From Candidatus Sericytochromatia bacterium (GTDB lineage: Bacteria > Cyanobacteriota > Sericytochromatia > S15B-MN24 > UBA4093): 64,000 nucleotides of DNA. This document shows positions 3,173 through 57,816 of this stretch, piece after piece; position 1 is the stretch's first letter; every line of letters begins with the position of its first letter. The position numbers and the translations under genes are program-made. Below the pieces are notes generated by a model. That model was given only the letters and a program-made list of their open reading frames with translations. It made no database searches and had not been told where the DNA came from. The stretch is from contig JAKFBU010000039.1 in NCBI GenBank assembly GCA_036676985.1, positions 148,845 through 212,844 on the forward strand, given 5' to 3'.

Positions 3173-3174
3173 TC

Positions 3175-4353: not shown

Positions 4354-4354
4354 G

Positions 4355-4388
4355 CCGAACGGCCCCCGGTTTCCCGGGGGCCGTTCGC
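4355..4388. terminator. Bidirectional intrinsic terminator
   Basis: Hairpin CGAACGGCCCCCGG-tttc-CCGGGGGCCGTTCG between convergent genes. Confidence 0.75.
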
Positions 4389-4408
4389 TTGGTGGGTCGC
4401 GTTGGACC

Positions 4409-5644: not shown

Positions 5645-5653
5645 GTTGGCCTC

Positions 5654-7135: not shown

Positions 7136-7160
7136 GGCTTACTCCTTTGAGGCTCGGCGG

Positions 7161-10744: not shown

Positions 10745-10834
10745 GATGTCCTCGCTCGGTTTCGAAACGATTGCCAGTTCCTGACATCTCGATTATTCCC
10801 GGCGCCGGGCCGCTTCATCCGTGCCCACGGATAC

Positions 10835-34683: not shown

Positions 34684-35292
34684 TTACTGCTGGGGAACGG
34701 ACTGGGTCTGAGGCACGCCCAGGTTGATGACGGACCCGAGGCCGGTGCCGGCCTGCGCGAGGGCGCCCAGCTGGTCGAAGGAAGGAACCGAGTAGGTGCG
34801 GCCCTGGTTGGCGGCGATCTCGATGGCCTTGGCGGCGAGGGCGGCGTAGACGATGCCGCGCTGGATCTGGGCTCCGATGTCGCTGCCGGCGTAGCGAGAG
34901 AGCTCACCGGGGCTCTTGACGCCGGACTGGACGATCAGGTGCGCCCAGTCGGGCTGCATGCCGTTGATTCGCATCATATCGGCCATCTGGCCGTACTTGA
35001 CGAGGGATTCCTGCGGGATGCCGGTCAGGAAGGAAGCGATGGCACGGCGGAAGCCGCCGCCCGCGGCGAAGCGCATCATCCCGGGGCTCGCGAGGCCCCA
35101 GCGGTTGAGGCGACCGAGGTCCTGCTCGTTGCCGATGAGCCGGCTCATCAGGTAGAGGTTGGCGTCCGATTGAGCCGCCTGGACGGGCGCCTGCTGGGGC
35201 GCCGCGGTGACGCCGCCGCCCGCTTGAACGGCCTTGGCCGGGGCGGTACTGGCGATGCGCATGGCGTTGGGCGAGAAGCTCTGAATGGACAT
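34684..35292 (-). CDS. DUF4332-like helix-hairpin-helix protein
   Basis: ADMMRINGMQPDWAHLIVQSGVKSPGEL resembles the DUF4332 consensus. Confidence 0.55.
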   Translation of the reverse strand: MSIQSFSPNAMRIASTAPAKAVQAGGGVTAAPQQAPVQAAQSDANLYLMSRLIGNEQDLGRLNRWGLASPGMMRFAAGGGFRRAIASFLTGIPQESLVKYGQMADMMRINGMQPDWAHLIVQSGVKSPGELSRYAGSDIGAQIQRGIVYAALAAKAIEIAANQGRTYSVPSFDQLGALAQAGTGLGSVINLGVPQTQSVPQQ

Positions 35293-35467
35293 GGTCGTCC
35301 CCCCTATTGATGAGTGACTGGTCTTAACACCTCACAGACGTTATCGCGGAGGGGTGGAGGATCTTTCTTAGGGCGCGGTTAAGCTGCGGCTAACAATTGC
35401 CTAATGGGTGACGGATCCGGGTGGGAAGGTGGTAGGAGGGGCGGGAAGGGCGTAGGGACGCCGCGAA

Positions 35468-35497
35468 TTGACAACTGGCAAGGGAAGTTGATATTCT
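35468..35497 (+). promoter_or_regulatory. Sigma70 promoter of tRNA-Pro/tRNA-Gly
   Basis: TTGACA-N18-TATTCT. Confidence 0.7.
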
Positions 35498-35508
35498 GAA
35501 ACTCCTTT

Positions 35509-35585
35509 CGGGGCGTAGCGCAGCTTGGTAGCGCATCTGCTTTGGGAGCAGAGGGTCCTGGGTTCGAATCCCAGCGCTCCGACCA
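35509..35585 (+). tRNA. tRNA-Pro(TGG)
   Basis: Cloverleaf; anticodon loop TTTGGGA; GTTCGAATCC; CCA end. Confidence 0.97.
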
Positions 35586-35599
35586 TTTACCTAACCCGT

Positions 35600-35674
35600 G
35601 CGGGTGTAACTCAGTGGTAGAGTTCCTGCCTTCCAAGCAGGCTGTCGTGGGTTCGAATCCCATCGCCCGCTCCA
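35600..35674 (+). tRNA. tRNA-Gly(TCC), intact
   Basis: GCGGGTG...CCTGC-CTTCCAA-GCAGG...GTTCGAATCC...CGCCCGCTCCA. Confidence 0.97.
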
Positions 35675-35679
35675 AACAA

Positions 35680-35714
35680 GAGGCCCTGGCGTGATGCCAG
35701 GGCCTCCTTCTTTT
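35680..35714 (+). terminator. tRNA operon terminator (also repeated in array units)
   Basis: GAGGCCCTGGC-gtgat-GCCAGGGCCTC + T-rich tail. Confidence 0.75.
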
Positions 35715-35724
35715 CTCCGAGTTG

Positions 35725-35776
35725 GCGGACGGAATGTGAAACGAATGAAACAGATGAAACAAGGCTTGTTTCATGG
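35725..35776 (+). promoter_or_regulatory. Iterated TGAAAC binding-site motif (copy 1; others at 38066-38116 and 38865-38916)
   Basis: TGAAAC x3 at 9-bp period then inverted GTTTCA. Confidence 0.6.
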
Positions 35777-35802
35777 ACAATCAGGCAGGGAATATCCAGA
35801 AT

Positions 35803-36360
35803 ATGAGACCAGGACCCGTACTGCTTTCAGTTCTTGCCGTAGCCATCCTAAGTGGGTGTGGTGTTGTCAGGAATATTGCGGCATCGGCTCCCACGCCTCA
35901 AAGCCTTTCCTTTCGAACAGTAGCCCCAACTCCCGGATCTGGCAGCGATGTGCTCGACGGGATTCGCGCGTCTGGGCTAGTAGCACGTAGTCAGTCTGAA
36001 CTGGTTAGAGAGCTTGTAAATCGTAGATACGAGACAGAGCAAGTATCCGATAATCAAGCCTATGAGGCCTTTCTCAGCAAGTCGATTCCCACGTTAGATT
36101 TCTCAACAGAACAGGGCATTCTCGCTACTTTTGGCGCACAAGGTAACACGTGTTACCGCGGCGAAATTGTTTCTGTTGAAGAGCGTCAAGATCGAATCGT
36201 TGTACACACTGTTCTTTGGGCACCCCGCTACGGGCAAAGCTGCGGAGCGGCGATTGTCTATCCCTACCACTACGTTGCGATCCCGAAGTCGGCAAAACCA
36301 GTCGAATTTCGCGAACCCGTTAGAAAAGAAGTTCCCGGAGCCTGGTGGCAGATCTTCTGA
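35803..36360 (+). CDS. Lipoprotein with PrcB C-terminal-like domain (cassette 1)
   Basis: Lipobox LSGC; PTLDFSTE..ILATFGAQ...IVSVEE..DRIVVH...AIVYPYHYVAIP. Confidence 0.7.
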   Translation: MRPGPVLLSVLAVAILSGCGVVRNIAASAPTPQSLSFRTVAPTPGSGSDVLDGIRASGLVARSQSELVRELVNRRYETEQVSDNQAYEAFLSKSIPTLDFSTEQGILATFGAQGNTCYRGEIVSVEERQDRIVVHTVLWAPRYGQSCGAAIVYPYHYVAIPKSAKPVEFREPVRKEVPGAWWQIF

Positions 36361-36377
36361 TAAAGGTTGATTAAACG

Positions 36378-36785
36378 ATGTTCCGCCTAAAGTTCGCCGG
36401 GGCGATTGCTGCTGGCGTGCTCGTAACAAGTTGCAGCTTCCCTGCCTCTGGAGTGGTTGTTGGCACGATCACGCACCTTTCTGTCAAAGGGTATTTCGGG
36501 ACCAATGTGCCAGTAACCATTCGGGCAAGGGCAACCTTTCCTGGGGCTATCGACCATGCGTCTCTAACGACAGACGTTTCAGCTCGATCAGGTAACACGA
36601 TCCGGGTCATGGCCACAGCCAGTCGAGCCCAACATTTTCTTGGGCTTGGGGTTTTCCCCGTTGATACATCCAGCCCAAACAATACCGAGATAGAGACGAC
36701 AGTTAGCGTAAGTAGCCCTGGCGTATACGTAATTGAGGGATTGCAAGATGGAGCGGTCACGGCTTCCACTTCCTTCAGCATTTGA
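36378..36785 (+). CDS. Hypothetical lipoprotein (cassette 1)
   Basis: Lipobox VTSC; beta-rich; lower GC. Confidence 0.6.
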   Translation: MFRLKFAGAIAAGVLVTSCSFPASGVVVGTITHLSVKGYFGTNVPVTIRARATFPGAIDHASLTTDVSARSGNTIRVMATASRAQHFLGLGVFPVDTSSPNNTEIETTVSVSSPGVYVIEGLQDGAVTASTSFSI

Positions 36786-36829
36786 CTTGCCAGCAGTGCG
36801 GAAATGGCCTCGCTTTGCTGCGACACACA

Positions 36830-36926
36830 GCGGGTGTGCCACCGATGGTGGCAGCAAGCAACTCCGTGGTAGAGTTCCTGCCTTCCAAGCAGGCTGTCGT
36901 GGGTTCGAATCCCATCGCCCGCTCCA
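36830..36926 (+). repeat. tRNA-Gly-derived repeat R1: full tRNA + 22-nt hairpin insertion after nt 8
   Basis: GCGGGTGT[GCCACCGATGGTGGCAGCAAGC]AACTCCGTGG...CGCTCCA; one substitution versus the intact tRNA; terminator copy follows. Confidence 0.92.
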
Positions 36927-37076
36927 AACACGAGGCCCTGGCTTGATGCCAGGGCCTCGAACTATCTCCAGTTCAGTTCTATCGCGCGAAGGCTCCGTAC
37001 TTCGATTAATGAACAGAAAGCCTTATGGCGGGTAAGAAGAAAATAATCCCTATAGTCAACTGGAGTTAGAGCTCGT

Positions 37077-37916
37077 ATGGAAATCCGTGATGTCACCATT
37101 CCTGGCTTGTCAGGCGCTTTGGTAGACATGGACATAAACAGCACCGGCCGGCTCGCATATATATGTAAATCTTTAAACGGCTACTCAGTATTTGTAGATG
37201 GCGAGAAGGTAGATATTGGGCAAGGCGTTCCCTATGATATTCGCCTTCTCTCAAATGATGAATTCGTCTTGTTTTGCCACCACGGCGAATATATCGATAA
37301 ATATTATCGACTTGAAAGGTATCAAAAATCCGCTCATTTAGGCTGGCATAGCAATTGGTCCTGGAGTATTGACCCCCAGTACGAGAATATCACCTGTACG
37401 GATCGATGGATTGCCATCGGCTTTTCCGATATGAATAGAAAAGGCGTCTTGGCAATTCCTGACCATGGGCACTCCCTGGTTTACTATAATGACATATTCT
37501 GGGAAGAAGCAGTCCGCGGCGTCGAGATATACGCAATGTGTAAAGGGCCGCGGAATTCAATCTATTTTCATCCCTACACCGATTTTCAACTTGTGCAATG
37601 GAATCTTGATACGATGACCCAGGTCGTATGGGTAACACCTGAGGCGGTTCACGGATCAAATGCAGTTTCCGTAACGGATGGTACGGCCTACTTTTACTCG
37701 CCCTATGATGAAGAACAGTATGAGGGAGATGAATTCAACTGGAAAAACGTTAGAATAACTGAGATAAGGGAGCATTCGTTCTATTCCTGGGAGATTGGAA
37801 GCTCGGTAGTAAAAAAAGTTGGCGAGTACAAGCTGAACGGGTCCACAATTAGAGGCCTTCCGGGGGGACGATTCCTTGTTATTCATCGAGACTCGTACTC
37901 AATCATCGCGTTTTAA
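37077..37916 (+). CDS. Hypothetical protein, aromatic/beta-rich, low GC (cassette 2)
   Basis: 279-aa ORF filling the space between R1 and R2. Confidence 0.7.
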   Translation: MEIRDVTIPGLSGALVDMDINSTGRLAYICKSLNGYSVFVDGEKVDIGQGVPYDIRLLSNDEFVLFCHHGEYIDKYYRLERYQKSAHLGWHSNWSWSIDPQYENITCTDRWIAIGFSDMNRKGVLAIPDHGHSLVYYNDIFWEEAVRGVEIYAMCKGPRNSIYFHPYTDFQLVQWNLDTMTQVVWVTPEAVHGSNAVSVTDGTAYFYSPYDEEQYEGDEFNWKNVRITEIREHSFYSWEIGSSVVKKVGEYKLNGSTIRGLPGGRFLVIHRDSYSIIAF

Positions 37917-37919
37917 GAA

Positions 37920-38016
37920 TTGGGTATGCCACCTCTGGTGGCAGCTAGCAACTCAGTGGTAGAGTTCCTGCCTTCCAAGCAGGCTGTCGTGGGTTCGAAT
38001 CCCATCGCCCGCTCCA
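37920..38016 (+). repeat. tRNA-Gly-derived repeat R2 with 22-nt insertion
   Basis: TTGGGTAT[GCCACCTCTGGTGGCAGCTAGC] then tRNA nt 9-75 identical. Confidence 0.92.
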
Positions 38017-38225
38017 AATGCAAGCCCCCGAGCCAGTCTCGGGGGCTTCTTCGTTCTCCGGGCCAGTGGACGGAACGCGATACAAATAAAACAAATGAAA
38101 CTACTTTTGCTTCATCTGCTGTCAGGGGTACGGTTGAGGCGCCGAGGACAAGTACGGCCTCGTTTGTGACTTACTCTAGATTGGCCGTATGGCCTTATCC
38201 AAGGTAAACTTTCTTGGTCCCTCCG

Positions 38226-38657
38226 ATGGCCTTTGACGTGACGCCGCGCCTTGATGACAAGGGAATTACTTTGAAAACAGTTCGAGACCCGGCCGACGGG
38301 ATCCACAGCAGAATACAGAACGGCACGATATATTCCTGGAATGTAAAGGACCTCTGGGCGTTGGCGGCAAGGCTCCCCGTCTTTCAAATTGACCCACAAG
38401 CCGTCATAGATCTGGACAAAGATGGATGGTTCGTTGGCAAAGAGCCAGTACTTCGGCTGGTGCTAGAGCACGTTCGGCGAATCCAAGACGCCGATCTCTC
38501 CTATCCGGTTATTTTGGATGCTGATGGGTCGATAATGGATGGAGCCCATCGTGTGGCCAAGGCAATCCTTGAAGGACGTCAGACGATTGACGCCGTTCAG
38601 TTTCGATATCTTCCTCCTCCATCTCGAACTGCGCTGGTAGCTGGCCAGGACAATTGA
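38226..38657 (+). CDS. ParB/Srx-like domain protein (cassette 3)
   Basis: DLSYPVILDADGSIMDGAHRVAKA matches the ParB N-terminal DGxHR motif; start uncertain (38214/38226). Confidence 0.65.
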   Translation: MAFDVTPRLDDKGITLKTVRDPADGIHSRIQNGTIYSWNVKDLWALAARLPVFQIDPQAVIDLDKDGWFVGKEPVLRLVLEHVRRIQDADLSYPVILDADGSIMDGAHRVAKAILEGRQTIDAVQFRYLPPPSRTALVAGQDN

Positions 38658-38720
38658 CTTTAGCTTTCGGCTCATCAGTGGCGGAATTCCTGACATAGTA
38701 GAAGCATGGTCTGGATGTCA

Positions 38721-38816
38721 GCACGTGTGCCGCGACGGTGCCTGCGAGCACCTCAGTAGAGTAATTCCAGCCTTCCAAGCAGGCTGCGGTGGGTTCGAAT
38801 CCCTTCGCCCGTTCCA
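38721..38816 (+). repeat. Degenerate tRNA-Gly-derived repeat R3
   Basis: GCACGTGT[GCCGCGACGGTGCCTGCGAGC]ACCTCAGTAGAG...CCTTCCAAGCAGG...GTTCGAATCCCTTCGCCCGTTCCA; terminator and TGAAAC motif follow. Confidence 0.88.
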
Positions 38817-38997
38817 AACACGAGGCCCTGGCGTTTGCCAGGGCCTCCCTCTATTCGCCAAAATGCGGACGGAAAATGAAACGAATGTAACAGATGATAC
38901 GGGGCATGTTTCATGGCTCATGTGATCTATTCTGTTATCAGGCTGCGCGATATTTACATCAGTCATATCAAACAATCGCTGAGGGCTCATAAACGCT

Positions 38998-39543
38998 ATG
39001 CAAGCAAAACACCTCTTACTCCCGGTGGTCTGCATTTCGCTACTCTCCGGCTGCGGAATGGTTCGTAATATTGCGGGGGCAAGCCCGCTCGCTCCATCTA
39101 TCTCTTTCCGGGTTGTATCACCTGCCAGTAGCCACACAGGCCGTTTCAACATTCGTGCGCAGAACCACGTCTTTAGAACCCAGCAAGAAGTCGATAGCTT
39201 CCTCGCTACTGTGCCTGTAACCGCATTCGACGGCAATGGAAACCAGGTTAGTGAAACTCTCCCCGCTATCGATTTTTCAAAAGAAGTCGGAATTCTTGTG
39301 CTCTTTGGTGCCCAATCCGACGGAGGCTACAGCGGCGATATCTCCGCGATTGAAGAGAAGCAAGACCGATTGATCGTCCATCCGCTCCTCTGGACTCATA
39401 GTAATGAGCCTGGCGTAGGCTACACGATGGCCATCGTTTACCCCTACAAATATGTAGCAATCCCAATTAGTTCCAAGCCCATCGAGTTTGCTTCCACCGT
39501 TGATCGCCCACGCCCCAGTCCCTGGTGGTCGATCTTCTATTAG
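38998..39543 (+). CDS. Lipoprotein with PrcB C-terminal-like domain, paralog of 35803 (cassette 4)
   Basis: LSGCGMVRNIA; PAIDFSKE..LFGAQSDGGY...AIVYPYKYVAIP; WWSIF end. Confidence 0.72.
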   Translation: MQAKHLLLPVVCISLLSGCGMVRNIAGASPLAPSISFRVVSPASSHTGRFNIRAQNHVFRTQQEVDSFLATVPVTAFDGNGNQVSETLPAIDFSKEVGILVLFGAQSDGGYSGDISAIEEKQDRLIVHPLLWTHSNEPGVGYTMAIVYPYKYVAIPISSKPIEFASTVDRPRPSPWWSIFY

Positions 39544-39547
39544 GCTG

Positions 39548-39644
39548 GCGGGTGTGGCACCTATGGTAGCAGTAAGCAACCCAGTGGTAGCGTTCCTGCC
39601 TGCCAAGCAGGCTGTCGTGGGCCGGAATCCCATCGCCCGCTCCA
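39548..39644 (+). repeat. tRNA-Gly-derived repeat R4 (anticodon position reads GCC, T-loop mutated)
   Basis: GCGGGTGT[GGCACCTATGGTAGCAGTAAGC]AACCCAGTGG...CTGCCAA...GGCCGGAATCCCATCGCCCGCTCCA. Confidence 0.9.
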
Positions 39645-39782
39645 TTTCAAAGCCTCAGCTTGATGCCCAGGCCTCGTGTTTGGAGCGAACAACAACCATC
39701 GTATAGACGTGTTGACACGAACATAAAATCATCGTAATGTCTACTGTCTCCCAATCACGACTATGCAGACAGGGACGTAACG

Positions 39783-40151
39783 ATGCATAAGAAAATGACT
39801 GTCCTCGGCCTTTGCTTGACCACCGGCCTCCTGCTGAGCGGTTGCATTTCGACGCAAAAAATGCAGTTCGACCGTGCATTTGACCCTACCGCCGGAGACA
39901 GCCGGAATGTGGAGGTCCTCGACAGTGCCAACGTCAAGCGCTCCTATAAGGTTATCGGCATCGTTGAGGCGGATGCAGTTGCCGACTACGGATTGAACAA
40001 CGTACTGTCGGCCTTGAAACTAGAGGCCAAAAAGATGGGCGGACAGGCCGTCATTGATGTGCAGCGTGTCCCAATGTACTCCAAAACGTTTTGGGATGGC
40101 TTGTTCCCGAGTGGCCAGCGCTGGAGCGGCAAGGTCATTACCTGGGAATAG
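39783..40151 (+). CDS. Small lipoprotein, YbjQ-like fold (cassette 5)
   Basis: Lipobox LSGC; YKVIGIV...LKLEAKKMGGQAVI; own TTGACA at 39712. Confidence 0.65.
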   Translation: MHKKMTVLGLCLTTGLLLSGCISTQKMQFDRAFDPTAGDSRNVEVLDSANVKRSYKVIGIVEADAVADYGLNNVLSALKLEAKKMGGQAVIDVQRVPMYSKTFWDGLFPSGQRWSGKVITWE

Positions 40152-40173
40152 TTCACCGATTCCATCGTCCAAG

Positions 40174-40262
40174 CCTGCCTACATAGCAGGCTGTCGTGCG
40201 ATCTCGCACCAAGCAAGAGGCCCTGGCTTGATGCCGGGGCCTCTTGCTTGGAGCGGGCGATG
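40174..40262 (+). repeat. Highly degenerate tRNA-Gly repeat R5 + terminator + inverted tRNA 3' end
   Basis: CCTGCCTACATAGCAGGCTGTCGTG, GAGGCCCTGGCTTGATGCCGGGGCCTC, then TTGGAGCGGGCGATG (reverse complement of the tRNA 3' end). Confidence 0.8.
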
Positions 40263-40404
40263 AGGGAAACAAACTGAGCAGGCTCCCCCTGCACGCTTGA
40301 GTAAGCTTTCCACGAAATTAGGGTAACCTGTCTAGTACGTGCTCGCAGCGGGTGGGTGGACAGCCAGAGACGCGCCCGAGCTCGAGACGTAGAGGAGGGC
40401 CACG

Positions 40405-40893
40405 ATGACGAAGTCCAGGATCTGCCTGTGGTATGACCGTGACGCGGAGGAAGCTGCACGCTTCTACGCCCAAACCTTTCCCGATAGCACGGTCGGCGCG
40501 GTGCAGCGAGCGCCCTCGGACTTCCCGAGCGGCAAGGCAGGCGACGTGCTGACGGTCGAGTTCACGGTCTGTGGGCTGCCTTGCCTGGGCCTCAATGGCG
40601 GGGACGCGTTCCCGCAAACCGAAGCGTTCTCCTTTCAAATCGAGACGGAGGACCAGGCGGAGACCGACCGCTATTGGAACGCGATCGTCGGAAACGGCGG
40701 TGAGGAGAGCGCGTGTGGCTGGTGCAAGGACAAATGGGGCGTGTCCTGGCAGATCACGCCGCGTATCCTGACGGAGGCGATGGCCCAAGGGGGCGACGTC
40801 GCGAAGCGCGCGTTTGAGGCGATGATGGAGATGCAAAAGATCGACGTCGCCAAAATCGAGGCGGCGGTGCGCGGCGAGACCGAGTCGAAATAA
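40405..40893 (+). CDS. VOC/PhnB-family protein (3-demethylubiquinone-9 methyltransferase-like domain)
   Basis: CLWYD..AEEAARFY, LNGG, CGWCKDKWGVSWQI, MQKID. Confidence 0.9.
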   Translation: MTKSRICLWYDRDAEEAARFYAQTFPDSTVGAVQRAPSDFPSGKAGDVLTVEFTVCGLPCLGLNGGDAFPQTEAFSFQIETEDQAETDRYWNAIVGNGGEESACGWCKDKWGVSWQITPRILTEAMAQGGDVAKRAFEAMMEMQKIDVAKIEAAVRGETESK

Positions 40894-41168
40894 ATCACCC
40901 GACTCCCGTATCGAAGCCTCGGCCTTGCGCCGGGGCTTCGGTGTTTCTCCGACCAAATGTGACCCGTTAAGGCCGTGACTCAAGAAGGCGCGAAGCGATC
41001 GGCTCGCTCAAAGGCAAATCGCTCACCGGAAAGTGCTTGTGGAAAGCATCCCATGACTGTTGGTAGAAGCACCGTTGAACGAAGAACGCTTGCCTGGCAG
41101 CATATCGAAAGGCCTCGTTTGATGTGCCATTTGCTTGGCACGGCGCGATAGCAAGAGGGAGCGAAGCG

Positions 41169-41867
41169 ATGAATCACAACCTCGGCAGCATCCTGATGAT
41201 GGGGCTCATCTTCTGTCCACTGGTGCTCACGGGTTGCTTGACCGCGCCTTCGGCCACGACGCTGTTTCAGCATGACACCTCACGATCGGCCCCGGACGGC
41301 TATCAGGTAGCCGCCATCCGCAGCTTCTCCAAGCACAAGGGCGACTACCTTCCGGCGCATAACTTCAAACTAGAGATGGATGCGGTCGTGGTCGGCTCGT
41401 TCCAGAACGCCCAGGGAGTCCCACGATCGCCTGTCCTTCAAGAGGCTGATTGGCCGGCAATCGACCTGCGAACCGGTGGGTTCAAAGAGGTCAGCGGACT
41501 CGAGGCGGAAGTGGAAGTCATCGAGTACCGGAACGGTGACGATCCCATCACTCACAAACGCGCCGGTAAGGCCAAGTATAAGAACATCACCCTCAAACGG
41601 GGTCAATTCAGCGATCCTTCGGTAGCCGACTGGCTTAAAAAGGTCCTCGCTGGAACAACGGACCGTAAAAGTGGCAGCATTATCTACCTCGACCGCGAGG
41701 GGAGCGAGATATTACGCTATAACTTCTTCGAGGCATGGCCAGTCCGCTGGAAAATCGCCAATCGGGACAGTCAAGCCATCGTTGAGATTGAGTTTGCGGT
41801 GGAACGAATTGAGCCAGCCGGCAAAGCCCTGCCTGGTGATCCGATTCCCGGAATCGATGTTCGTTAG
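41169..41867 (+). CDS. T4-gp19-like / eCIS tail-tube domain fused to a lipoprotein signal
   Basis: Lipobox LTGC; FKEVSGLEAEVEVIEYRNG...KYKNITLKRG...W...RKSGSIIYLD...RYNFFEAWPVRW. Confidence 0.82.
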   Translation: MNHNLGSILMMGLIFCPLVLTGCLTAPSATTLFQHDTSRSAPDGYQVAAIRSFSKHKGDYLPAHNFKLEMDAVVVGSFQNAQGVPRSPVLQEADWPAIDLRTGGFKEVSGLEAEVEVIEYRNGDDPITHKRAGKAKYKNITLKRGQFSDPSVADWLKKVLAGTTDRKSGSIIYLDREGSEILRYNFFEAWPVRWKIANRDSQAIVEIEFAVERIEPAGKALPGDPIPGIDVR

Positions 41868-42009
41868 AGCATAACTTAGCGTTCTCAGACGCTCGACCCG
41901 ATAGAGAAATGGACTTTCCACGGGAATTCCACCCGAAGGCCCGATCGGGCATTTGTGGCAGCCGTCCTCATTTTGAAGTGGTTCGCGATGCGATGAGCGC
42001 TCCACAGAC

Positions 42010-42195
42010 CTACAGCACTGGTCGCCCGAGAACAGTGCCACGGGGCTTGAGCGGATTATCTGGCTTGCCAATCTGAATTCCCTGGGTGTTATCCAAAAAA
42101 GCAAGCAATAATCCCATGGCCAAGATGGCACTCGCAACTATCAGCAAGCTCTTAAGAGGGTTGCGAACAAAGAAGTCTGCAAATCGTTTCATCAC
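42010..42195 (-). CDS. Small single-TM hypothetical protein
   Basis: 61 aa, one hydrophobic helix, AGGA RBS. Confidence 0.45.
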   Translation of the reverse strand: MMKRFADFFVRNPLKSLLIVASAILAMGLLLAFLDNTQGIQIGKPDNPLKPRGTVLGRPVL

Positions 42196-42280
42196 TTTTC
42201 CTATTGCACTTCATACGACTCCTGCTACTTGGAGTATTTGAGGCGGCGCGTGCTACGGAGTTAATTCTATTAATCGGGGT

Positions 42281-42374
42281 CGGGTGTGTACATCCCCAAT
42301 GGTGGCAGCAAGCAGGTCGAATCCCATCGCCCGCTCTCCCCCTCGAGGCCCCGACGTAACGCCGGGGCCTCGAG
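42281..42374 (+). repeat. Internally deleted tRNA-Gly repeat R6 + hairpin
   Basis: CGGGTGTG...ATGGTGGCAGCAAGCA joined to GGTCGAATCCCATCGCCCGCTC; GAGGCCCCG..CGGGGCCTC hairpin. Confidence 0.82.
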
Positions 42375-42534
42375 CCTTTGCCACTCCAACGAAAAACGGG
42401 GGGAAATATTTCTCGCCGATTGACCTAGGACGGTCACGGTCAACCAGCTATCACAAGACCAAAGACCCGCTCCTGTCCCCCGATTGGCCGCCCGGCGCAA
42501 ACTTGGATCCCGGGCGAGAAAGGGGATACTCCCC

Positions 42535-43239
42535 ATGGCGACCGAACCAATCAAATTGACGCCCGGCAGGCTCACCGCCACGATTCTCTACCTCCTGGCC
42601 TACCCCTTCTTGATCTTGGGCCTGGGAGGCGACAGGAAATGGGCCGAGGGCTGGATCTTCAGCACCTGGTTCGTGACGTTCTGCATCGCGACCATCGTCT
42701 ACCTCTACTTCAACGATCCCGCCCTGCTCGCCGAGCGTTACCGCCGGCCGGGAAAAGACAGTGGCGAACAGACGTGGGACCGGTACTTCATCTATGCCAT
42801 CGGCATCTTCTTCATGGCTTGGTTCGTCGTGATGCCGCTGGATGCCCGGAGATTCGACTGGTCCCCGGATTTCCCCCTCTGGCTCGTCTTGACCGGAGCC
42901 CTGTTGCTGGCAGGAGCGACCTACTTCATGTTTCGCGCCTATTCGGACAACACGTATCTGTCCCCTCTGGTCAGGATCCAGGCCGAACGTCAGCAGCGAG
43001 TGGTTTCAACGGGGGTCTACGGCTTCGTGCGGCACCCCATGTACCTGGGAGCCATTTGCCTGATGCTGGGGGCCCCCCTGTTTCTGTCGTCACTCGGCGG
43101 CCTCGCGATCGGCGTGCTCATGGTCGCCCTATTGATCGCTCGTATCGTCGGTGAAGAACAGGTGCTCGTCTCCGGACTGGAAGGCTACCAAGAGTACCGG
43201 AACAAGGTGAAGTACCGACTGATTCCGCACATTTGGTAA
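42535..43239 (+). CDS. Isoprenylcysteine carboxyl methyltransferase (ICMT/Ste14) family membrane protein
   Basis: VVSTGVYGFVRHPMYLG, RIVGEE..L, Y..Y...VKYRLIP. Confidence 0.88.
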   Translation: MATEPIKLTPGRLTATILYLLAYPFLILGLGGDRKWAEGWIFSTWFVTFCIATIVYLYFNDPALLAERYRRPGKDSGEQTWDRYFIYAIGIFFMAWFVVMPLDARRFDWSPDFPLWLVLTGALLLAGATYFMFRAYSDNTYLSPLVRIQAERQQRVVSTGVYGFVRHPMYLGAICLMLGAPLFLSSLGGLAIGVLMVALLIARIVGEEQVLVSGLEGYQEYRNKVKYRLIPHIW

Positions 43240-43325
43240 CCCGCGATGAACGCCACAGCCCCCGAGCCAGATCTCGGGGGCTGCTGCGAGTGATAGCTCG
43301 TGACAGCATCGATCACAAAGGCGTT

Positions 43326-43649
43326 TTACCAGTAACGCCGCTTGGAATAGCCGTAGCCGTAGCCGTAGCCATAATAGGGATAGCCGTAGCGGTTGTACGG
43401 ATTATAGCCGTAGCCGTATCCATAACCGTAATAGGGATAGTACGGAGCGAAACAGTCCCCGCAGAACCCTTGTGTCTCACGGGTTGCTTCGGGCGTTTCG
43501 GCCGTCGTTTGGGTCACGGCTTGAGCCGGATCCTGCGTCTGCGATTGCTCCGGGGTTTGCACGGGGGGTTGGGTGGGTGCTTCAGAGCATCCGGCAGTAG
43601 CCGCAAGGGAAGCCACGAAGAGGGTGACCCACAATTGCTTCAATTGCAT
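43326..43649 (-). CDS. Small lipoprotein with Gln/Thr/Pro linker and Tyr/Gly-rich tail
   Basis: Lipobox TAGC; FCGDCF then YGYGYG repeats. Confidence 0.6.
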   Translation of the reverse strand: MQLKQLWVTLFVASLAATAGCSEAPTQPPVQTPEQSQTQDPAQAVTQTTAETPEATRETQGFCGDCFAPYYPYYGYGYGYGYNPYNRYGYPYYGYGYGYGYSKRRYW

Positions 43650-44086
43650 AAATACTCCCAGATAAAGCATGTGCGAGGGCTACCCCTTGGTAGCCTCATT
43701 CATGGGCCAAACAATAGACGAGGACCTGCGACGGAATAATGTCCATTAGTGGCTGGTTCCTGGTCGCTTTTGATCACCCGCCGACCGATCAGGCAAACAG
43801 AGGTTTTGGCGGACCAGCCCGATTGGTGGGGCTTTCGACGATCTCGCACCCGGCCCTCCCAGGACCCGAGTGTGCCCAAAGACACACGCGATGGACGCTT
43901 ACTCGATTGAAGCGCAACCGGTTGCTATGAGGGCTCGATTGGCGCTCCCTTCCCCGTCGGGGCTCACCGTTGTTTCTTCGCAAGTGGGCGATAGGAGCCA
44001 ATTTGCCTTGCTGACGACATGGCACCGCGTTGTCGGACGGTCGCTGCTCGTGTTACGGTTGGTAGAGCTATTGCGCGACCAAGCGC

Positions 44087-45502
44087 ATGCCTTCCTACTC
44101 CAACCATGAGCCGCAATCGTACGGCTCGCCGCTGTTGACCGTGAACATCTTACAGACCTTGAACCTCTTCAACGCCGCGGGCGTCGGGATCGTGACGGTC
44201 CTGTCGCTCTTCTTCGGCTTTCGCTACCCCACGCCGTTCTTCCGCGCGTGGACCGCGGCCTACACCTCGTTCTTCATGGTCGTCCTGCTCGAGACCGTCG
44301 CGGTCCATACCCACCGGCCGGAAGCCGTGTCCCTGATCCAGGTGGGTCTGTTCCCGATCTGCGCCTGGTACTTCTATCAGACGGCCAACGTTGTGCGAGG
44401 TCGCTTTACTCGGCCTCTGCCCATAGCCGCCCTCTTGATCGCCTGTACCCTGCTGAGCGCCGGCTTGCTGTTCGCCGGTGTATCCTACATCCTGGCCGCC
44501 GAGCCCATTTTCCTGCTCGTGGATGCCGCCATCGTGTTCCTGGGGGTCACCTTCCTGAGACTGCAGGGAGGCAACTCGTCGACGCGCTGGCTGGCCTGGT
44601 CCCTGATTGGCTTCGGGCTCTGGCCGCAGCTCTTTCCCTACGCCCTGTTCGCAGACAAGCCCCTAGGCGCCGTCGGCTACTTCATCTGCGGCACGCTCAA
44701 CATCGCTGTCGGCATCGCCATGGTCGTCTACCTGGTGGACGAGAGCTGGCGACGCTTCAAAGTGGAGCAGGAACGGCAACTGCGCCTCCACAACGACTTC
44801 GTGTCCATGGTCAGCCATGAGCTGCGCACGCCCCTGACCTCCGTGCTCGGCTACGCCGAGTTCCTGGAGGACGGCGTAGCAGGAAAGCTCAACGGCGATC
44901 AGCTGGGGTTCGTCTCCCAGATCCAGCATGCCACCCGGAGCCTGCAACGCCTCGTCGAGGATCTGCTGGATGTCTCGGTGCTCGAGACGGGACGCCTGAA
45001 GCTGGACCGGCAGAGCGTGGACATCAAGCACAACATCACGGCCGTCCTGGATAGCCTGCTCCCGCTCGCCAAGAAGACCGGCCTCGAGCTGACGGCCTCC
45101 ATGCCTCCCGGCCCCATCCACGCTCAAATCGACCCGGTACGCTTCGATCAGGTTCTCAACAACCTGGTCGTCAACGCGATCAAGTTCACGCCGTCAGGGG
45201 GCCGGATCAGCGTCACCCTGAGCTCGCTGCCGCACGAGCTGCGGCTCGAGGTCCAGGACACGGGCACCGGGATACCGGCGGACAAGTTGCCGCACGTGTT
45301 CGAGCGTTTTTACCAGGCCGAGTCGACCATGACCCGCAAGCGTAACGGCGTGGGCCTGGGACTTGCGATCGCAAAAGCCATCGTCGAGGCGCACGGCGGC
45401 CAGATCGACTGCACCAGTCGCCCGGGGAGCGGGAGCACCTTCTGGTTCTCCATCCCAATGCCCTCCATGGTCCGGAAACCGGCGCCGACGGGCAGCGCTT
45501 GA
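44087..45502 (+). CDS. Membrane sensor histidine kinase (orphan)
   Basis: Multiple TM helices; SHELRTPL; NLVVNAIKF; DTGTG; FERFYQ; GLGLAI; start uncertain. Confidence 0.9.
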   Translation: MPSYSNHEPQSYGSPLLTVNILQTLNLFNAAGVGIVTVLSLFFGFRYPTPFFRAWTAAYTSFFMVVLLETVAVHTHRPEAVSLIQVGLFPICAWYFYQTANVVRGRFTRPLPIAALLIACTLLSAGLLFAGVSYILAAEPIFLLVDAAIVFLGVTFLRLQGGNSSTRWLAWSLIGFGLWPQLFPYALFADKPLGAVGYFICGTLNIAVGIAMVVYLVDESWRRFKVEQERQLRLHNDFVSMVSHELRTPLTSVLGYAEFLEDGVAGKLNGDQLGFVSQIQHATRSLQRLVEDLLDVSVLETGRLKLDRQSVDIKHNITAVLDSLLPLAKKTGLELTASMPPGPIHAQIDPVRFDQVLNNLVVNAIKFTPSGGRISVTLSSLPHELRLEVQDTGTGIPADKLPHVFERFYQAESTMTRKRNGVGLGLAIAKAIVEAHGGQIDCTSRPGSGSTFWFSIPMPSMVRKPAPTGSA

Positions 45503-45647
45503 GACACTCCCTGACCGGCAGCCGCGTTTGGGCATGGCAAGCAAGGGTATAGGTTATGACAAGCCTCGCCCAGCACCATTTATTCCAGGCGGCTCGCCGT
45601 GAGCCCTCGGAGGCCCTGGTCCCCATCGCTTCGAGGTCGTCTCATCC

Positions 45648-46628
45648 ATGCCGTTACTACTGGCGCTCATCGTACTCGCGCTCATCCTCTGGATCATCAA
45701 GACGGTCCTGTTCGCGGTCGTCTTCTATGGCAAATTCGCTCTGCTCGTCGCATGCGTCGGCATCTTCGTCGCGGAGGTTCGAAGCCAGCTCAAGGCGCGA
45801 GAGGCCGAAGGCTTGGAGGACGCCGACGATGCCTCCTTCATCCTGCCCTACCGCACGGCGGGATGGATGGCAGCGTGCCTCGTGCTGTTCGGCCTCGGCT
45901 TTCCGGCCCAGGACTGGGCCGCGCGGGTGACCTTCTCTGAAGCCTATGAGCAGGTGGAGCTGGCGAAGAAGGAAGCCGGAGAAGGCCGCTACGACAAAGC
46001 GCTCGAAGCCATGGAGCAGGTGAAGGACAGCGGTCCGGTCGACGAGGTCGCACACGCCCTCCGCGAGGCGTACGTCCCCCCCGTCGTCGACCGTTCCGTC
46101 GAGCTCGCCAAGGAGGGCGACTACCTCCAGGCGATCCGGGTCCTCGAGACGACCCCGGAAGAGGGGGCCCATGCCGGTACCCGCGAGAACCTGCTCGCAG
46201 CATGGCGCGACCCCGCTCGACGGCAGCAGGCGCGCATCGAACGGCAGGCCGAGCAGGAGTTTCGCACGCGGTTCATCCGGGTCTCGGATCGCTTTGCCAA
46301 AAGTCTCAAGGAGATTCAGAGCGCTCCGTTCGATACCCCCTACGCGGCGTACGCCTTTTGTACCGACATGATCGACGAAATGGACGCCGTCCAGGACATG
46401 GCGCGCGAGCTGAAGCCCCAGGGCACGGTTCAGAGCCGCTGCAAGGAGGCGCTGATGAACGCCGCCCTGTCGATGGAGACCGCCCTTTTTGCCGGCAAAA
46501 AGTTCTCGAAGTCCCGCGATCCGGAGGACCTGCTCGTCATTCGCACGGCCATGGCGAACGCCGATGCCAGTCTTCACCAGTGGGCGCTCTGGATGCGCAT
46601 GGAAGTCGACACCATGACGCACGAGTAG
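45648..46628 (+). CDS. Hypothetical membrane protein with helical (TPR-like) C-terminus
   Basis: N-terminal TM helices, helical acidic remainder. Confidence 0.6.
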   Translation: MPLLLALIVLALILWIIKTVLFAVVFYGKFALLVACVGIFVAEVRSQLKAREAEGLEDADDASFILPYRTAGWMAACLVLFGLGFPAQDWAARVTFSEAYEQVELAKKEAGEGRYDKALEAMEQVKDSGPVDEVAHALREAYVPPVVDRSVELAKEGDYLQAIRVLETTPEEGAHAGTRENLLAAWRDPARRQQARIERQAEQEFRTRFIRVSDRFAKSLKEIQSAPFDTPYAAYAFCTDMIDEMDAVQDMARELKPQGTVQSRCKEALMNAALSMETALFAGKKFSKSRDPEDLLVIRTAMANADASLHQWALWMRMEVDTMTHE

Positions 46629-56552: not shown

Positions 56553-56565
56553 GTCACGGAAGAGC

Positions 56566-56645
56566 GAAAGCCCGCCGGGTGTGCGACCGGCGGGCTTCAG
56601 TTCAGAGAGGTGAGGTGGTGCGCTCTTGATGCTCTTATCTTGCCA
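56566..56645 (-). ncRNA. Putative sigma54-type small RNA, copy 1
   Basis: 68-nt block 67/68 identical to 57643-57710; TGGCA..GC with GG-N10-GC spacing; C-rich body; terminator hairpin. Confidence 0.5.
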
Positions 56646-56714
56646 TTCGCTCGAGCGATCGGCTGTCGGCGCGATCGCTCCCTCCACGTGATCCTGCTTT
56701 CGCTTGCTTGATCG

Positions 56715-57642: not shown

Positions 57643-57722
57643 GAAAGCCCGCCGGGTGTGCGACCGGCGGGCTTCAGGTCAGAGAGGTGAGGTGGTGCGC
57701 TCTTGATGCTGTCAGGATGCCA
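57643..57722 (-). ncRNA. Putative sigma54-type small RNA, copy 2
   Basis: Same block and GG-N10-GC spacing as 56566-56645. Confidence 0.5.
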
Positions 57723-57816
57723 CATGATCTCCCGGCCGGCTGTCGGGGCGATCGCACCCGCCGTGTGAGGCAGCTATCGCTCGCTTACCTGCTCTTGGGT
57801 GTGCGAAGGAGGCAAC

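What the first reader, a model, noticed from the sequence alone, without database searches (positions are those of the whole stretch)
35600..43283. tRNA-Gly-anchored, integron-like gene cassette array with polarised repeat decay
Seen: downstream of the intact tRNA-Gly(TCC) lie six direct tRNA-derived repeats (36830, 37920, 38721, 39548, 40174, 42281), each followed by an intact or degenerate terminator-type hairpin. They separate 0.5-2 kb cassettes of 1-3 mostly co-oriented, lower-GC genes (lipoproteins, ParB-like, VOC, tail tube). Proximal repeats are nearly perfect; distal ones are mutated or deleted. The R2-type hairpin recurs at 43256. Known: ordinary tRNA islands leave one 3'-fragment duplicate and carry an integrase. 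Here most repeats span the full tRNA, units are gene-sized and no recombinase is in the window. Inference: repeated site-specific capture of mini-cassettes at the tRNA by a trans-acting recombinase, newest first, an apparently undescribed gene-capture array.
Basis: partly seen in the sequence, partly recalled or inferred. Interest (0 to 1): 0.92.

Follow-up and report, generated by a model that had tools for sequence, protein, structure and literature searches.

The report
Stacked mini-islands behind a tRNA-Gly gene
Behind one glycine tRNA gene of an uncultured soil bacterium lie six decaying copies of that tRNA that separate small blocks of foreign genes, most likely the scars of repeated insertions at the same spot, a known process seen here in an unusually compact form that carries no integrase.

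Summary
The intact tRNA-Gly(TCC) at 35600-35674 is followed by six direct tRNA-Gly-derived repeats. Each is followed by a GC-rich hairpin. They divide a 6.7-kb low-GC stretch (45-57% GC against 65% in the flanks) into six compact cargo units.

- Five repeats are full-length pseudo-tRNAs broken by the same 22-23-nt palindromic insertion at tRNA position 8/9. The sixth, R5, is a classical 3' fragment.
- Three units also repeat a 52-nt GAAAC-iteron segment, which I call D7.
- In relatives, D7 forms part of the long direct repeats of small islands at tRNA-Val, tRNA-Thr and tRNA-Gly. These islands carry an HTH_17-type tyrosine integrase or a fragment of one.

Contigs from an independent groundwater metagenome show that the cargo of the tRNA-proximal unit is absent or replaced exactly at the repeat boundaries.

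Best reading (0.6): serial Campbell-type integration ("accretion") of small elements of one attachment-site family at a tRNA hotspot, newest first, with the integrase supplied in trans or lost. This kind of process is known (tandem tDNA islands, CIMEs, tycheposon islands), so it is not an undescribed mechanism and not an integron. Six integrase-less units of 0.6-2 kb and the insertion-disrupted full-length pseudo-tRNA make it a new variant. Whether the units were born small remains open.

The parts
35509..35585 (+). tRNA-Pro(TGG), conserved neighbour of the target tRNA
   Evidence: ARAGORN; Rfam; the Pro-Gly pair is conserved in relatives
35600..35674 (+). Intact tRNA-Gly(TCC): the integration target (attL side)
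   Evidence: ARAGORN; Rfam 69.4 bits; 21/21 cloverleaf pairs
35680..35706 (+). Hairpin h0, terminator-like with a T-run
35725..35776 (+). D7 copy 1: three GAAAC repeats 10 nt apart, plus the palindrome ATGAAAC-N7-GTTTCAT
   Evidence: family D7; palindrome z -3.7
35803..36785 (+). Unit 1 cargo: PrcB_C-like lipoprotein (35803-36360) and a 135-aa lipoprotein (36378-36785)
   Evidence: In run X5 contigs join 35773/35780 to 36829, so this cargo is absent or replaced there
36830..36926 (+). R1: full-length pseudo-tRNA-Gly with a 23-nt insertion at 36838-36860
   Evidence: 74/75 identical to the tRNA without the insertion
36932..36958 (+). Hairpin h1
37077..37916 (+). Unit 2 cargo: 279-aa protein of no known family; unit GC 0.45
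37920..38016 (+). R2: pseudo-tRNA-Gly with a 23-nt insertion at 37928-37950; starts 3 nt after the cargo stop codon
   Evidence: 72/75
38022..38048 (+). Hairpin h2, a different stem sequence, terminator-like
38066..38117 (+). D7 copy 2, 73% identical to copy 1
38214..38657 (+). Unit 3 cargo: 147-aa protein; its only match is phrog_17560, of unknown function
38721..38816 (+). R3: decayed pseudo-tRNA-Gly with a 22-nt insertion
   Evidence: 62/75; 14/21 pairs
38822..38847 (+). Hairpin h3
38865..38916 (+). D7 copy 3, 87% identical to copy 1
38998..39543 (+). Unit 4 cargo: second PrcB_C-like lipoprotein, 43% identical to the first
   Evidence: Homologues follow a D7 in G007 and lie in the L033 array
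39548..39644 (+). R4: pseudo-tRNA-Gly with a 23-nt insertion; starts 4 nt after the cargo stop codon
   Evidence: 69/75
39646..39687 (+). Degenerate hairpin h4. Its right flank is an inverted copy of the tRNA 3' end plus linker
   Evidence: (I3, I4)
39783..40151 (+). Unit 5 cargo: 122-aa lipoprotein
40174..40262 (+). R5: classical displaced 3' fragment that starts at the anticodon stem (40174-40211), inside a long palindrome (h5 at 40217-40243, inverted tRNA 3' end at 40244-40262)
   Evidence: D3, I1, I9; -28.7 kcal/mol, z -8.1
40405..42195 (.). Unit 6 cargo: PF06983 (3-dmu-9_3-mt) protein 40405-40893 (+), hairpin 40912-40940, gp19-type tail-tube domain with a lipoprotein leader 41124-41867 (+), doubtful 61-aa ORF 42010-42195 (-)
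   Evidence: In X5 contigs 41871 is joined directly to an R4-like pseudo-tRNA 5' part
42280..42336 (+). R6: pseudo-tRNA-Gly with the insertion remnant and an internal deletion. Probably the oldest scar
   Evidence: (D6, D8)
42342..42374 (+). Hairpin h6, stem changed in a compensatory way. Probable right end of the island
   Evidence: I20; z -5.6
42484..43239 (+). ICMT/PEMT-type methyltransferase, probably the first core gene (GC 0.60; a 69%-identical copy lies elsewhere in G007)
43256..43283 (+). h2-type hairpin after the methyltransferase gene; no tRNA remnant was recognised in front of it
   Evidence: (I21)

Best explanation
The 6.7 kb from 35675 to 42374 is a composite genomic islet. It was built by at least six successive Campbell-type integrations of small circular cargo elements into the tRNA-Gly(TCC) gene.

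All the elements belong to one attachment-site family. Their attP carries a copy of the tRNA region, namely the tRNA body, a terminator hairpin and, in at least three cases, the GAAAC-iteron segment D7. In five of the six the attP also carries a tRNA 5' part broken by a 22-23-nt palindromic insertion.

A crossover inside the tRNA body, to the right of the insertion, regenerates a working tRNA at the left junction. It leaves the disrupted copy as the right-hand scar. Each new arrival pushes older units away from the tRNA, where they decay.

The recombinase is most likely a tyrosine integrase with an N-terminal HTH_17 domain, of the kind found beside the same architecture in relatives. It is not in this array, so it acted in trans or was lost.

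Shown: the anatomy; the strain-level polymorphism at the repeat boundaries; replacement of the tRNA 3' half in a relative; and the link between D7, tRNA fragments and this integrase family in relatives.

Inferred: the circular intermediates, the position of the crossover, D7 as an integrase arm-type site, and which integrase acted.
For: 1. Every pseudo-copy with a 5' part (R1-R4, R6) has the insertion and the genuine tRNA does not. A Campbell event with an insertion-bearing attP predicts exactly this.
2. Cargo is heterogeneous. Only 1 pair of units shares homologous cargo, at 43% amino-acid identity, and another pair tested gave no alignment. GC ranges from 0.45 to 0.57 against 0.65 in the flanks. 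The ends stay far more alike than the cargo (D7 copies 73-87%).
3. Synteny with 5 of 5 relatives' loci (L001-L005) holds up to the tRNA and stops there. The cargo has no nucleotide match in 5 relatives.
4. G004's tRNA-Gly has a 3' half with the same T arm as G000's. A displaced fragment on another G004 contig keeps the G007-type T arm, followed by a hairpin and D7.
5. Four of the 26 other genomes of the order hold displaced tRNA-Gly 3' fragments. G007's ~17.5-kb islet also ends in one.
6. In G007 a 4.1-kb island at tRNA-Val has direct repeats of about 165 nt (tRNA 3' half + terminator + D7) and an integrase N-terminal fragment.
7. The D7 pattern occurs in 4 of 47 genomes of the class at 8 listed places, with 0 hits for the reversed control. 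It lies next to tRNA-Gly, tRNA-Thr and tRNA-Val.
8. Metagenome contig L033 has an HTH_17 + PF00589 integrase directly beside a full-length pseudo-tRNA-Thr that carries a 30-31-nt insertion, followed by D7 and a cassette array.
9. In run X5, from another study, contigs join 35773/35780 to 36829 and show other recombinant unit combinations. A 1682-nt contig reproduces 38562-40243 with 0 differences.
10. The process itself is documented.
Against: - No integrase or integrase remnant lies in the array.
- No D7 or R-type repeat lies elsewhere in the genome next to an integrase.
- The only homologue of the L033-type integrase in G000 (C62, 32-34% identity) serves a tRNA-Sec island with a different repeat, the 60-nt 5' part of the tRNA, and no D7. 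The cognate enzyme is therefore unidentified.
- Only 3 of the 7 junctions carry a recognisable D7.
- Decay is not strictly monotonic: R3 is worse than R4.
- A tRNA 5' half inside an attP is not explained by ordinary excision.
- The read evidence comes from assembled contigs laid at 90% likeness over a repeated region. 'Between: not known' means that replacement and deletion cannot be told apart.
- No circular junction was observed.
- The long homology (about 100-190 nt) would also allow RecA-dependent recombination.
Confidence: 0.6

Rival explanations
1. The array grew and is reshuffled by RecA-dependent homologous recombination. Incoming DNA or sister chromosomes of related strains carry different cargo between the same tRNA-hairpin-D7 and pseudo-tRNA blocks. 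Unequal crossovers in these 100-190-nt homologies stack or delete units without any site-specific recombinase.
For: - The repeats are long, and the proximal ones are nearly identical to the tRNA (74/75 and 72/75).
- There is no recombinase in the contig.
- X5 contigs show recombinant combinations such as an R2-type 5' part followed by the h0-type 3' part.
- P' and B' flanks in relatives are homologous well beyond the tRNA.
Against: - It does not explain how the first pseudo-tRNA with its insertion arose.
- It does not explain why D7 accompanies three different tRNAs.
- It does not explain why an integrase of one family sits beside the same architecture in L033 and G007.
- The distal repeats are too diverged for efficient homologous exchange. 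By my own reading, D7 copies 1 and 3 share runs of 11 nt at most.
Confidence: 0.2
2. The units are remnants of six ordinary, larger integrase-bearing islands that were trimmed by deletion. This is a sub-case of accretion in which the units were never mobile as small cassettes.
For: - Decay of integrated elements to integrase-less CIMEs is documented (PMC5704250).
- G007 shows an integrase reduced to an N-terminal fragment inside such an island.
- R5 and R6 show that deletions do occur here.
Against: - No truncated gene or integrase fragment is detectable in the array.
- 8 of the 9 ORFs in the island are co-oriented with the tRNA.
- Cargo stop codons lie 3-63 nt before the next repeat in 5 of 6 units.
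- Independent random deletions would not be expected to leave six such tidy units.
Confidence: 0.3
3. Tandem segmental duplication of the tRNA-Gly region, followed by divergence.
For: - The repeats are direct and at gene-sized spacing.
- Two units carry homologous PrcB_C-like genes preceded by D7.
Against: - The other cargo genes have no detectable paralogue in any other unit of the array or elsewhere in the genome (tblastn), and one further pair compared directly gave no alignment.
- The paralogues are only 43% identical, while their flanking repeats are 76-87% identical.
- GC differs between units.
- The genuine tRNA alone lacks the insertion.
- The units are absent from relatives.
Confidence: 0.05
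4. The pseudo-tRNAs are functional tRNA-like RNA elements, for example 3' processing or stabilising signals of the cargo transcripts, kept by selection.
For: Each copy sits immediately after a cargo gene and before a hairpin. R1 keeps 21/21 cloverleaf pairs outside the insertion.
Against: - R3 keeps only 14/21 pairs, and R5 and R6 are deleted.
- ARAGORN calls none of them.
- Rfam matches only the central part of R1 and R2.
- The insertion hairpin is not more stable than shuffled sequence (z -1.2 and -1.95).
- No RNA data could be examined.
Confidence: 0.05
5. Assembly artefact of a repeated tRNA region.
For: The genome is a 79-contig assembly and the repeats are near-identical at the proximal end.
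Against: Contigs of an independent study reproduce 38562-40243 (R3 to R5) with 0 differences and 37221-37965 with 13. Several runs hold 66-100% of the sampled words of the stretch.
Confidence: 0.02

Closest known systems
Tandem arrays of tRNA-gene (tDNA) genomic islands, as mapped by Islander (PMC4383910, passages read)
   Same: An intact tDNA at one end; displaced tDNA fragments in direct orientation that mark successive islands; foreign base composition; an anticodon-centred site (R5 and the relatives' fragments start at the anticodon stem).
   Different: Islander accepts an array only if each island has its own integrase. Its table lists 125 tandems of two or more and only 4 of three or more among 3919 islands. 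Here there are six units and no integrase. Units are 0.6-2 kb. Five of the six fragments are full-length copies with an insertion rather than 3' fragments. The repeat runs about 100 nt past the tRNA.
CIMEs (cis-mobilizable elements) and site-specific accretion in streptococcal ICE/IME systems (PMC5704250, passages read; the primary papers were seen only in its reference list)
   Same: Elements that keep attL and attR but have no integration or transfer genes, stacked by integration of newcomers into an att site.
   Different: CIMEs are defined as decayed ICEs or IMEs and sit beside an ICE or IME that can mobilise them. No conjugative or mobilisable element is present here, and the units look too compact to be remnants. 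The host lineage and the target (a tRNA gene with a terminator and iteron arm) differ.
Tycheposon-shaped genomic islands of Prochlorococcus (10.1101/2020.12.28.424599, passages read)
   Same: tRNA-anchored islands in which new arrivals push older ones inward, with degenerate remnants and extra partial tRNAs; cargo of niche-adaptive genes; populations that are heterogeneous for excision.
   Different: Tycheposons carry their own tyrosine recombinase and replication genes and are much larger. No such genes are present here. The integrase family seen in relatives has an HTH_17 N-terminus. I did not test its relation to tycheposon integrases.
Integrons
   Same: Works alike in outline: a fixed capture site, insertion at the proximal position, small co-oriented gene cassettes each ending in a structured repeat, and (in L033) a tyrosine recombinase gene divergent from the array.
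   Different: There is no IntI-type integrase, no attI and no attC sites. The repeats are tRNA-derived. Each unit begins with a terminator-type hairpin. This is analogy only.
ssrA (tmRNA) tandem islands of Dehalococcoides (PMC3146451; search listing and start of abstract only)
   Same: Repeated site-specific integration at one small-RNA gene.
   Different: I did not read the paper beyond the start of its abstract, so details are not compared.

Membership tests
tDNA genomic island / tandem tDNA island array (Islander criteria) | Intact tRNA gene at one end of the island | tested here: met
   tRNA-Gly(TCC) 35600-35674: ARAGORN, Rfam 69.4 bits
tDNA genomic island / tandem tDNA island array (Islander criteria) | Displaced fragment of the same tDNA in direct orientation at the other end of each island | tested here: met
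   Six direct copies or fragments. R5 is a classical fragment that starts at the anticodon stem. The other five are full-length copies with an insertion.
tDNA genomic island / tandem tDNA island array (Islander criteria) | An integrase gene in each island of the array | tested here: not met
   PF00589 gives 5 hits in the genome, none on contig C39. PF00239 gives 2 hits, none on C39. tblastn with two integrases against 35000-46000 gives nothing below E 0.01.
tDNA genomic island / tandem tDNA island array (Islander criteria) | Foreign composition and absence from relatives | tested here: met
   GC 0.45-0.57 against 0.65. No nucleotide match of the cargo in 5 relatives. Synteny ends at the tRNA.
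CIME (cis-mobilizable element) | Retains attL and attR but lacks integration and transfer genes | tested here: met
   Repeats flank every unit. No recombinase is present. Whether the sites are still functional was not tested.
CIME (cis-mobilizable element) | Derived by decay of an ICE or IME and mobilisable in cis by an accreted ICE or IME | not testable with these tools
   No ICE or IME is present in the window. Origin by decay cannot be shown from sequence: there are no gene remnants.
Integron | IntI-type integrase gene next to the array | tested here: not met
   No PF00589 hit on contig C39.
Integron | attC recombination sites at cassette ends | tested here: not met
   The cassette-end repeats are tRNA-Gly copies plus terminator-type hairpins. 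The attC features are recalled knowledge; I ran no attC model.
Tycheposon | Element-borne tyrosine recombinase plus replication or packaging module | tested here: not met
   Cargo annotation against Pfam, NCBIfam and PHROGs shows lipoproteins, a PF06983 protein, a tail-tube domain protein and unknowns only.
Functional tRNA gene (for R1-R6) | Uninterrupted cloverleaf recognised by tRNA finders | tested here: not met
   ARAGORN finds none. There is a 22-23-nt insertion at position 8/9. Rfam matches only model positions 9-63 in R1 and R2.

The most novel reading that the evidence does not exclude
The units are not remnants but a genuine class of minimal mobile cassettes. Each would be a circle of 0.6-2 kb made of one or two cargo genes plus a self-contained attachment site: an insertion-disrupted full-length pseudo-tRNA, a terminator hairpin and a GAAAC-iteron arm. 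A trans-acting HTH_17-type tyrosine integrase would capture and release these circles at tRNA genes. That would be a tRNA-anchored functional analogue of the integron in Sericytochromatia-like soil bacteria. The insertion would serve to keep the scar copies from being either functional tRNAs or fresh targets, which would enforce insertion at the proximal position.
Probability: 0.25. Interest if true: 0.85.

Novelty: new variant of a known kind. Interest (0 to 1): 0.5.

Why it matters
Gene flow in uncultured soil and groundwater lineages is poorly understood. Two named records of what looks like a same-family relative are titled Candidatus Sericytochromatia.

This locus shows a tRNA hotspot that has taken up at least six small blocks, mostly of lipoprotein genes, and that differs between natural populations. 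It also points to a specific, testable attachment-site architecture (tRNA body + terminator + GAAAC iterons). That architecture is shared by islands at three different tRNAs and is linked to one integrase family.

If the units prove to be mobile as mini-cassettes, this would be a second, tRNA-based route to integron-like gene capture. If they are trimmed remnants, it is an unusually clean record of serial accretion and decay.

Tried and rejected
Searches for the insertion-bearing pseudo-tRNA elsewhere
- A degenerate pattern scan of genome contigs found nothing.
- A second pattern found nothing in metagenome contigs or viral contigs.
- BLAST of the R1 unit in the 27 genomes of the order found no match to the insertion part.
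- The own genome and near relatives may be left out of the collection scans, and the patterns need exact matches. This shows only 'not found', not absence.

Searches for D7
- The D7 pattern in viral contigs gave 0 hits.
- A shorter GAAAC pattern in genome contigs gave 26 stretches. Most came from A+T-rich genomes of unrelated phyla and look like chance. I examined only L016, L017, L010 and L020. L016 has GAAAC repeats with no tRNA. L020 has tRNA-Thr followed by the motif.

Integrase remnants in the array
- tblastn with the L033 and C62 integrases gave only E-values of 0.017 and above. I rejected these.

Other annotation attempts
- A 90-nt 'tRNA-Gly(CCC)' on C76 is a false call inside a coding region.
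- Relaxed ARAGORN settings called 21 mostly spurious 'tRNAs' in the array and were not used.
- PADLOC gave no defence family in 10 proteins.
- A PDB sequence search for the 147-aa protein gave 0 hits.

The H2 repeat
- I considered the ~125-nt H2 repeat as an attC-like site. Its other copies in this genome lie in ordinary high-GC intergenic regions, and no integrase accompanies them consistently. I therefore treat it as a dispersed repeat.

Coverage
- In runs X6, X7 and X8 unit 1 (35769-36702) has almost no depth while other units have some. No contig bridges the gap in those runs and their depth is low, so this is no evidence.
- Depth in all four runs comes from contigs and cannot rank the parts.

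Tools and material that were not available
- The rest of the L033 contig could not be reached.
- I examined no RNA run and no raw reads. Circles, transcript ends and rare variants were therefore not testable.
- Supplementary files of the papers were not opened. The tycheposon supplement may hold closer examples of small integrase-less units.

Full report
WHAT IS THERE

The window is the last 64 kb of contig C39 of a 4.68-Mb, 79-contig assembly. ARAGORN finds tRNA-Pro(TGG) at 35509-35585 and one intact tRNA-Gly(TCC) at 35600-35674.

Six direct copies or fragments of that tRNA follow downstream:
- R1 36830-36926
- R2 37920-38016
- R3 38721-38816
- R4 39548-39644
- R5 40174-40211
- R6 42280-42336

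BLAST of the R1 unit against the whole assembly gives strong matches only at this locus, besides the other tRNA-Gly genes. Rfam recognises R1 and R2 as partial tRNAs, model positions 9-63.

A GC-rich hairpin follows the tRNA and every repeat. Two of them (h0, h2) also have the T-run of an intrinsic terminator. The others lack it, or are extended palindromes.

The six units between the repeats have 0.45-0.57 GC against 0.65-0.66 in the flanks.

1. R1-R4 and R6 are not simple copies. Between tRNA positions 8 and 9 each carries a 22-23-nt insertion that contains a 7-bp palindrome whose loop varies. The genuine tRNA lacks it. With the insertion taken out, identity to the tRNA is 74/75, 72/75, 62/75 and 69/75 for R1-R4. 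Cloverleaf pairs kept are 21, 19, 14 and 20 of 21. The copies are decaying, roughly but not strictly with distance.

2. R5 is of another type. It begins exactly at the anticodon stem, like a classical displaced 3' fragment. It sits in a long palindrome that includes an inverted copy of the tRNA 3' end.

3. After the tRNA, after R2 and after R3 there is a 52-nt segment that I call D7. It has three GAAAC repeats at 10-nt spacing and then the palindrome ATGAAAC-N7-GTTTCAT.

4. The homology among units begins exactly at tRNA position 1. Cargo stop codons lie 3-63 nt before the next repeat in five of six units.

CARGO
- Two PrcB_C-like lipoproteins, 43% identical to each other.
- Two further small lipoproteins.
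- A 279-aa protein and a 147-aa protein of no known family.
- A PF06983 protein.
- A gp19-type tail-tube domain with a lipoprotein leader.

Five of the eight plus-strand cargo proteins have a lipobox. No PADLOC family matches. The 'ParB-like' label is not supported. No tyrosine or serine recombinase domain lies on contig C39, and no integrase remnant is detectable in the array.

RELATIVES

The tRNA-Pro/tRNA-Gly pair and the genes upstream of it are syntenic in 5 of 5 relatives' loci examined. Synteny ends at the tRNA. The cargo has no nucleotide match in five relatives. None of the other 26 genomes of the order has the insertion-bearing copy, but four have displaced tRNA-Gly 3' fragments that start at the anticodon stem.

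In G004 the resident tRNA-Gly has a 3' half with the same T arm as G000's. A fragment on another G004 contig keeps the T arm of its congener G007, followed by a hairpin and D7. That is direct evidence that the tRNA 3' half and its terminator are exchanged by Campbell-type events at this gene.

G007 has a composite islet of about 17.5 kb behind the same tRNA. It holds several D7 copies, a D7-plus-PrcB-like module and a terminal classical fragment.

The D7 pattern occurs in 4 of 47 genomes of the class, all in one family, at 8 listed places. The reversed control gives no hit. D7 lies 70-105 nt behind tRNA-Gly(TCC), tRNA-Thr(CGT) and tRNA-Val(GAC). It therefore belongs to a mobile attachment-site module and is not the native flank of one tRNA.

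The clearest case is in G007. tRNA-Val, a terminator and D7 are repeated 4.1 kb further on as a tRNA-Val 3' fragment that starts at the anticodon loop, plus a terminator and D7. The island between them holds the N-terminal fragment of a tyrosine integrase.

The full-length form of that integrase (HTH_17 + PF00589, 358 aa) lies on metagenome contig L033. There it sits directly beside a full-length pseudo-tRNA-Thr that carries a 30-31-nt insertion, followed by D7 and an array of small cassettes, one of which is PrcB-like. The odd 'disrupted full-length tRNA copy' is therefore not unique to this window and is physically linked to this integrase family.

In the window's own genome the only homologue (C62, 32-34% identity) serves a 6.6-kb island at tRNA-Sec. 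That island has a perfect 60-nt repeat of the tRNA 5' part and no D7. The cognate enzyme for the tRNA-Gly array is therefore not identified.

POPULATIONS

Fourteen public runs from eight studies hold part of the stretch. I laid four of them, from three studies other than the probable source, all held as assembled contigs, at 90% likeness.
- A 1682-nt contig of X5 reproduces 38562-40243 (R3 to R5) without a difference. This excludes an assembly artefact.
- In X5, contigs join 35773 or 35780 (the end of the D7 palindrome) to 36829 (one base before R1). The cargo of the proximal unit is therefore absent or replaced with breakpoints exactly at the conserved ends.
- Other X5 contigs combine an R2-type 5' part with the h0-type 3' side.
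- Others place D7-like segments behind h1 and h2.
- Others join the end of the tail-tube gene directly to a less decayed pseudo-tRNA in front of h6.

The caveats are real. These are contigs, the region is repeated, 'between: not known' leaves deletion and replacement undistinguished, and no circle junction can be seen.

HOW IT MOST LIKELY WORKS

The pattern fits serial Campbell-type integration at the tRNA gene. It combines a genuine tRNA without the insertion, scars with it, ends conserved far better than cargo, heterogeneous low-GC cargo, a proximal unit missing in other populations, and tRNA halves exchanged in relatives.

Each incoming circle would carry an attP that mimics the tRNA region. 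A crossover to the right of the insertion restores the tRNA at the left junction and leaves the disrupted copy at the right. Older units move outward and decay.

D7, with three direct repeats one helical turn apart at a fixed distance from the tRNA, is best read as the arm-type binding region of the integrase. This is inference, by analogy with lambda-type attP arms, which I recall from general knowledge.

I give this 0.6. Within it, the tidy, co-oriented, remnant-free units argue that they were small from the start. Deletion of larger elements (0.3 as a sub-case) is not excluded. RecA-dependent exchange through the long homologies (0.2) could account for stacking and shuffling, but not for the origin of the sites or their link to one integrase family. 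Tandem duplication, functional tRNA-like RNAs and an assembly artefact are each unlikely, for the reasons listed under the rivals.

COMPARISON WITH WHAT IS KNOWN

The process is known.
- The tycheposon preprint describes successive integrations at one tRNA that push older elements into the island, leaving remnants and extra partial tRNAs (passages).
- The IME review defines CIMEs and accretion (passages).
- Islander maps tandem tDNA islands. It counts only 4 arrays of three or more among 3919 islands, and it requires an integrase in each (passages).

The locus fails the integrase criterion of a tDNA island array and all the defining features of an integron. It meets the sequence definition of CIMEs, but without any ICE or IME.

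What is unusual:
- the number of units (six);
- their size (0.6-2 kb);
- the complete lack of recombination genes;
- the full-length pseudo-tRNA with a conserved insertion;
- the long attachment site with an iteron arm shared across three tRNAs.

I did not find the insertion-bearing pseudo-tRNA in three sequence collections. The only search aimed at this lineage was one query on Sericytochromatia with genomic island, integrase and tRNA, of which I saw just the eight top-ranked listed results; none of those eight describes such an array. The other queries were aimed at the known comparators. That is a weak basis for 'not in print'.

VERDICT

This is a real, strain-variable, tRNA-anchored stack of small foreign gene blocks. 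It is a new variant of a known kind (tandem accretion at a tDNA), not a new kind of system and not an integron. Interest 0.5. The bold reading, true tRNA-based mini-cassettes captured in trans, remains possible at about 0.25.

Noticed in passing
window 56563-56688 and 57643-57765; also G000 C4:49541-53770 (4 copies), C59:43817-43947; L002, L033, L042, L044, L053: A second repeat family of about 125 nt, which I call H2. It has a perfect GC hairpin (GCCCGCCGG..CCGGCGGGC) followed by CAGAGAGGTGGTGTGTGG...TTGCCACACC. It bounds small cassettes in the islets of G007, G005 and contig L033. It directly follows the terminal tRNA-Gly fragment in G007. In G000 it lies in ordinary high-GC intergenic regions. 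No Rfam family matches it at gathering score.
   Followed up: partly
G000 contig C62:9407-16171 (outside the window): A 6.6-kb low-GC island on the 5' side of tRNA-Sec. It is flanked by a perfect 60-nt direct repeat of the tRNA 5' part (9445-9504 and 16112-16171). An intact HTH_17-type tyrosine integrase (9598-10746) lies divergent from the tRNA. This is the rarer 5'-fragment class of tDNA islands and looks recently active.
   Followed up: partly
window 41124-41867 (+): An orphan T4 gp19 / contractile-injection-system tube domain (PF06841, 1.5e-29) fused to an N-terminal extension of about 110 aa with a lipobox (LTGC). No other tail or injection-system gene was seen among the ORFs annotated between 33.6 and 46.6 kb.
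   Followed up: no
window 43326-43670 (-): A 114-aa ORF with a signal-peptide-like start. Its C-terminal part is encoded by tandem GCCGTA/GCCATA-type repeats, that is Gly-Tyr repeats. It matches no family.
   Followed up: no
window 40196-40266 and 39628-39692: At R5, and in degenerate form at R4, the hairpin is extended by an inverted copy of the tRNA 3' end and linker. At R5 this gives a palindrome of about 24 bp (-28.7 kcal/mol, z -8.1). It suggests a head-to-head junction or an inversion with breakpoints in the hairpins.
   Followed up: partly
L053 (G007:C22:444000-462000) 3011-7381: A textbook small island at tRNA-Val(GAC). It has direct repeats of about 165 nt (tRNA 3' half, a terminator with compensatory stem changes, D7). 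Inside are an integrase N-terminal fragment, an H2 copy, a small secreted protein and a glyoxalase-like gene.
   Followed up: yes
L016 6390-6450 (record titled uncultured Acidobacteriota bacterium): A cluster of GAAAC/GTTTC repeats resembling D7 lies downstream of a regulator-like gene, with no tRNA nearby. It may be chance or an unrelated regulatory site.
   Followed up: no
window 37006-37027: About 50 nt after hairpin h1 there is a stretch that looks, by eye, like a D7 with internal deletions. nhmmer did not report it.
   Followed up: no
window 63836-63999: tRNA-Arg(TCT) and tRNA-His(GTG) lie at the very end of contig C39. A contig break right after tRNAs may hide another variable region.
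   Followed up: no
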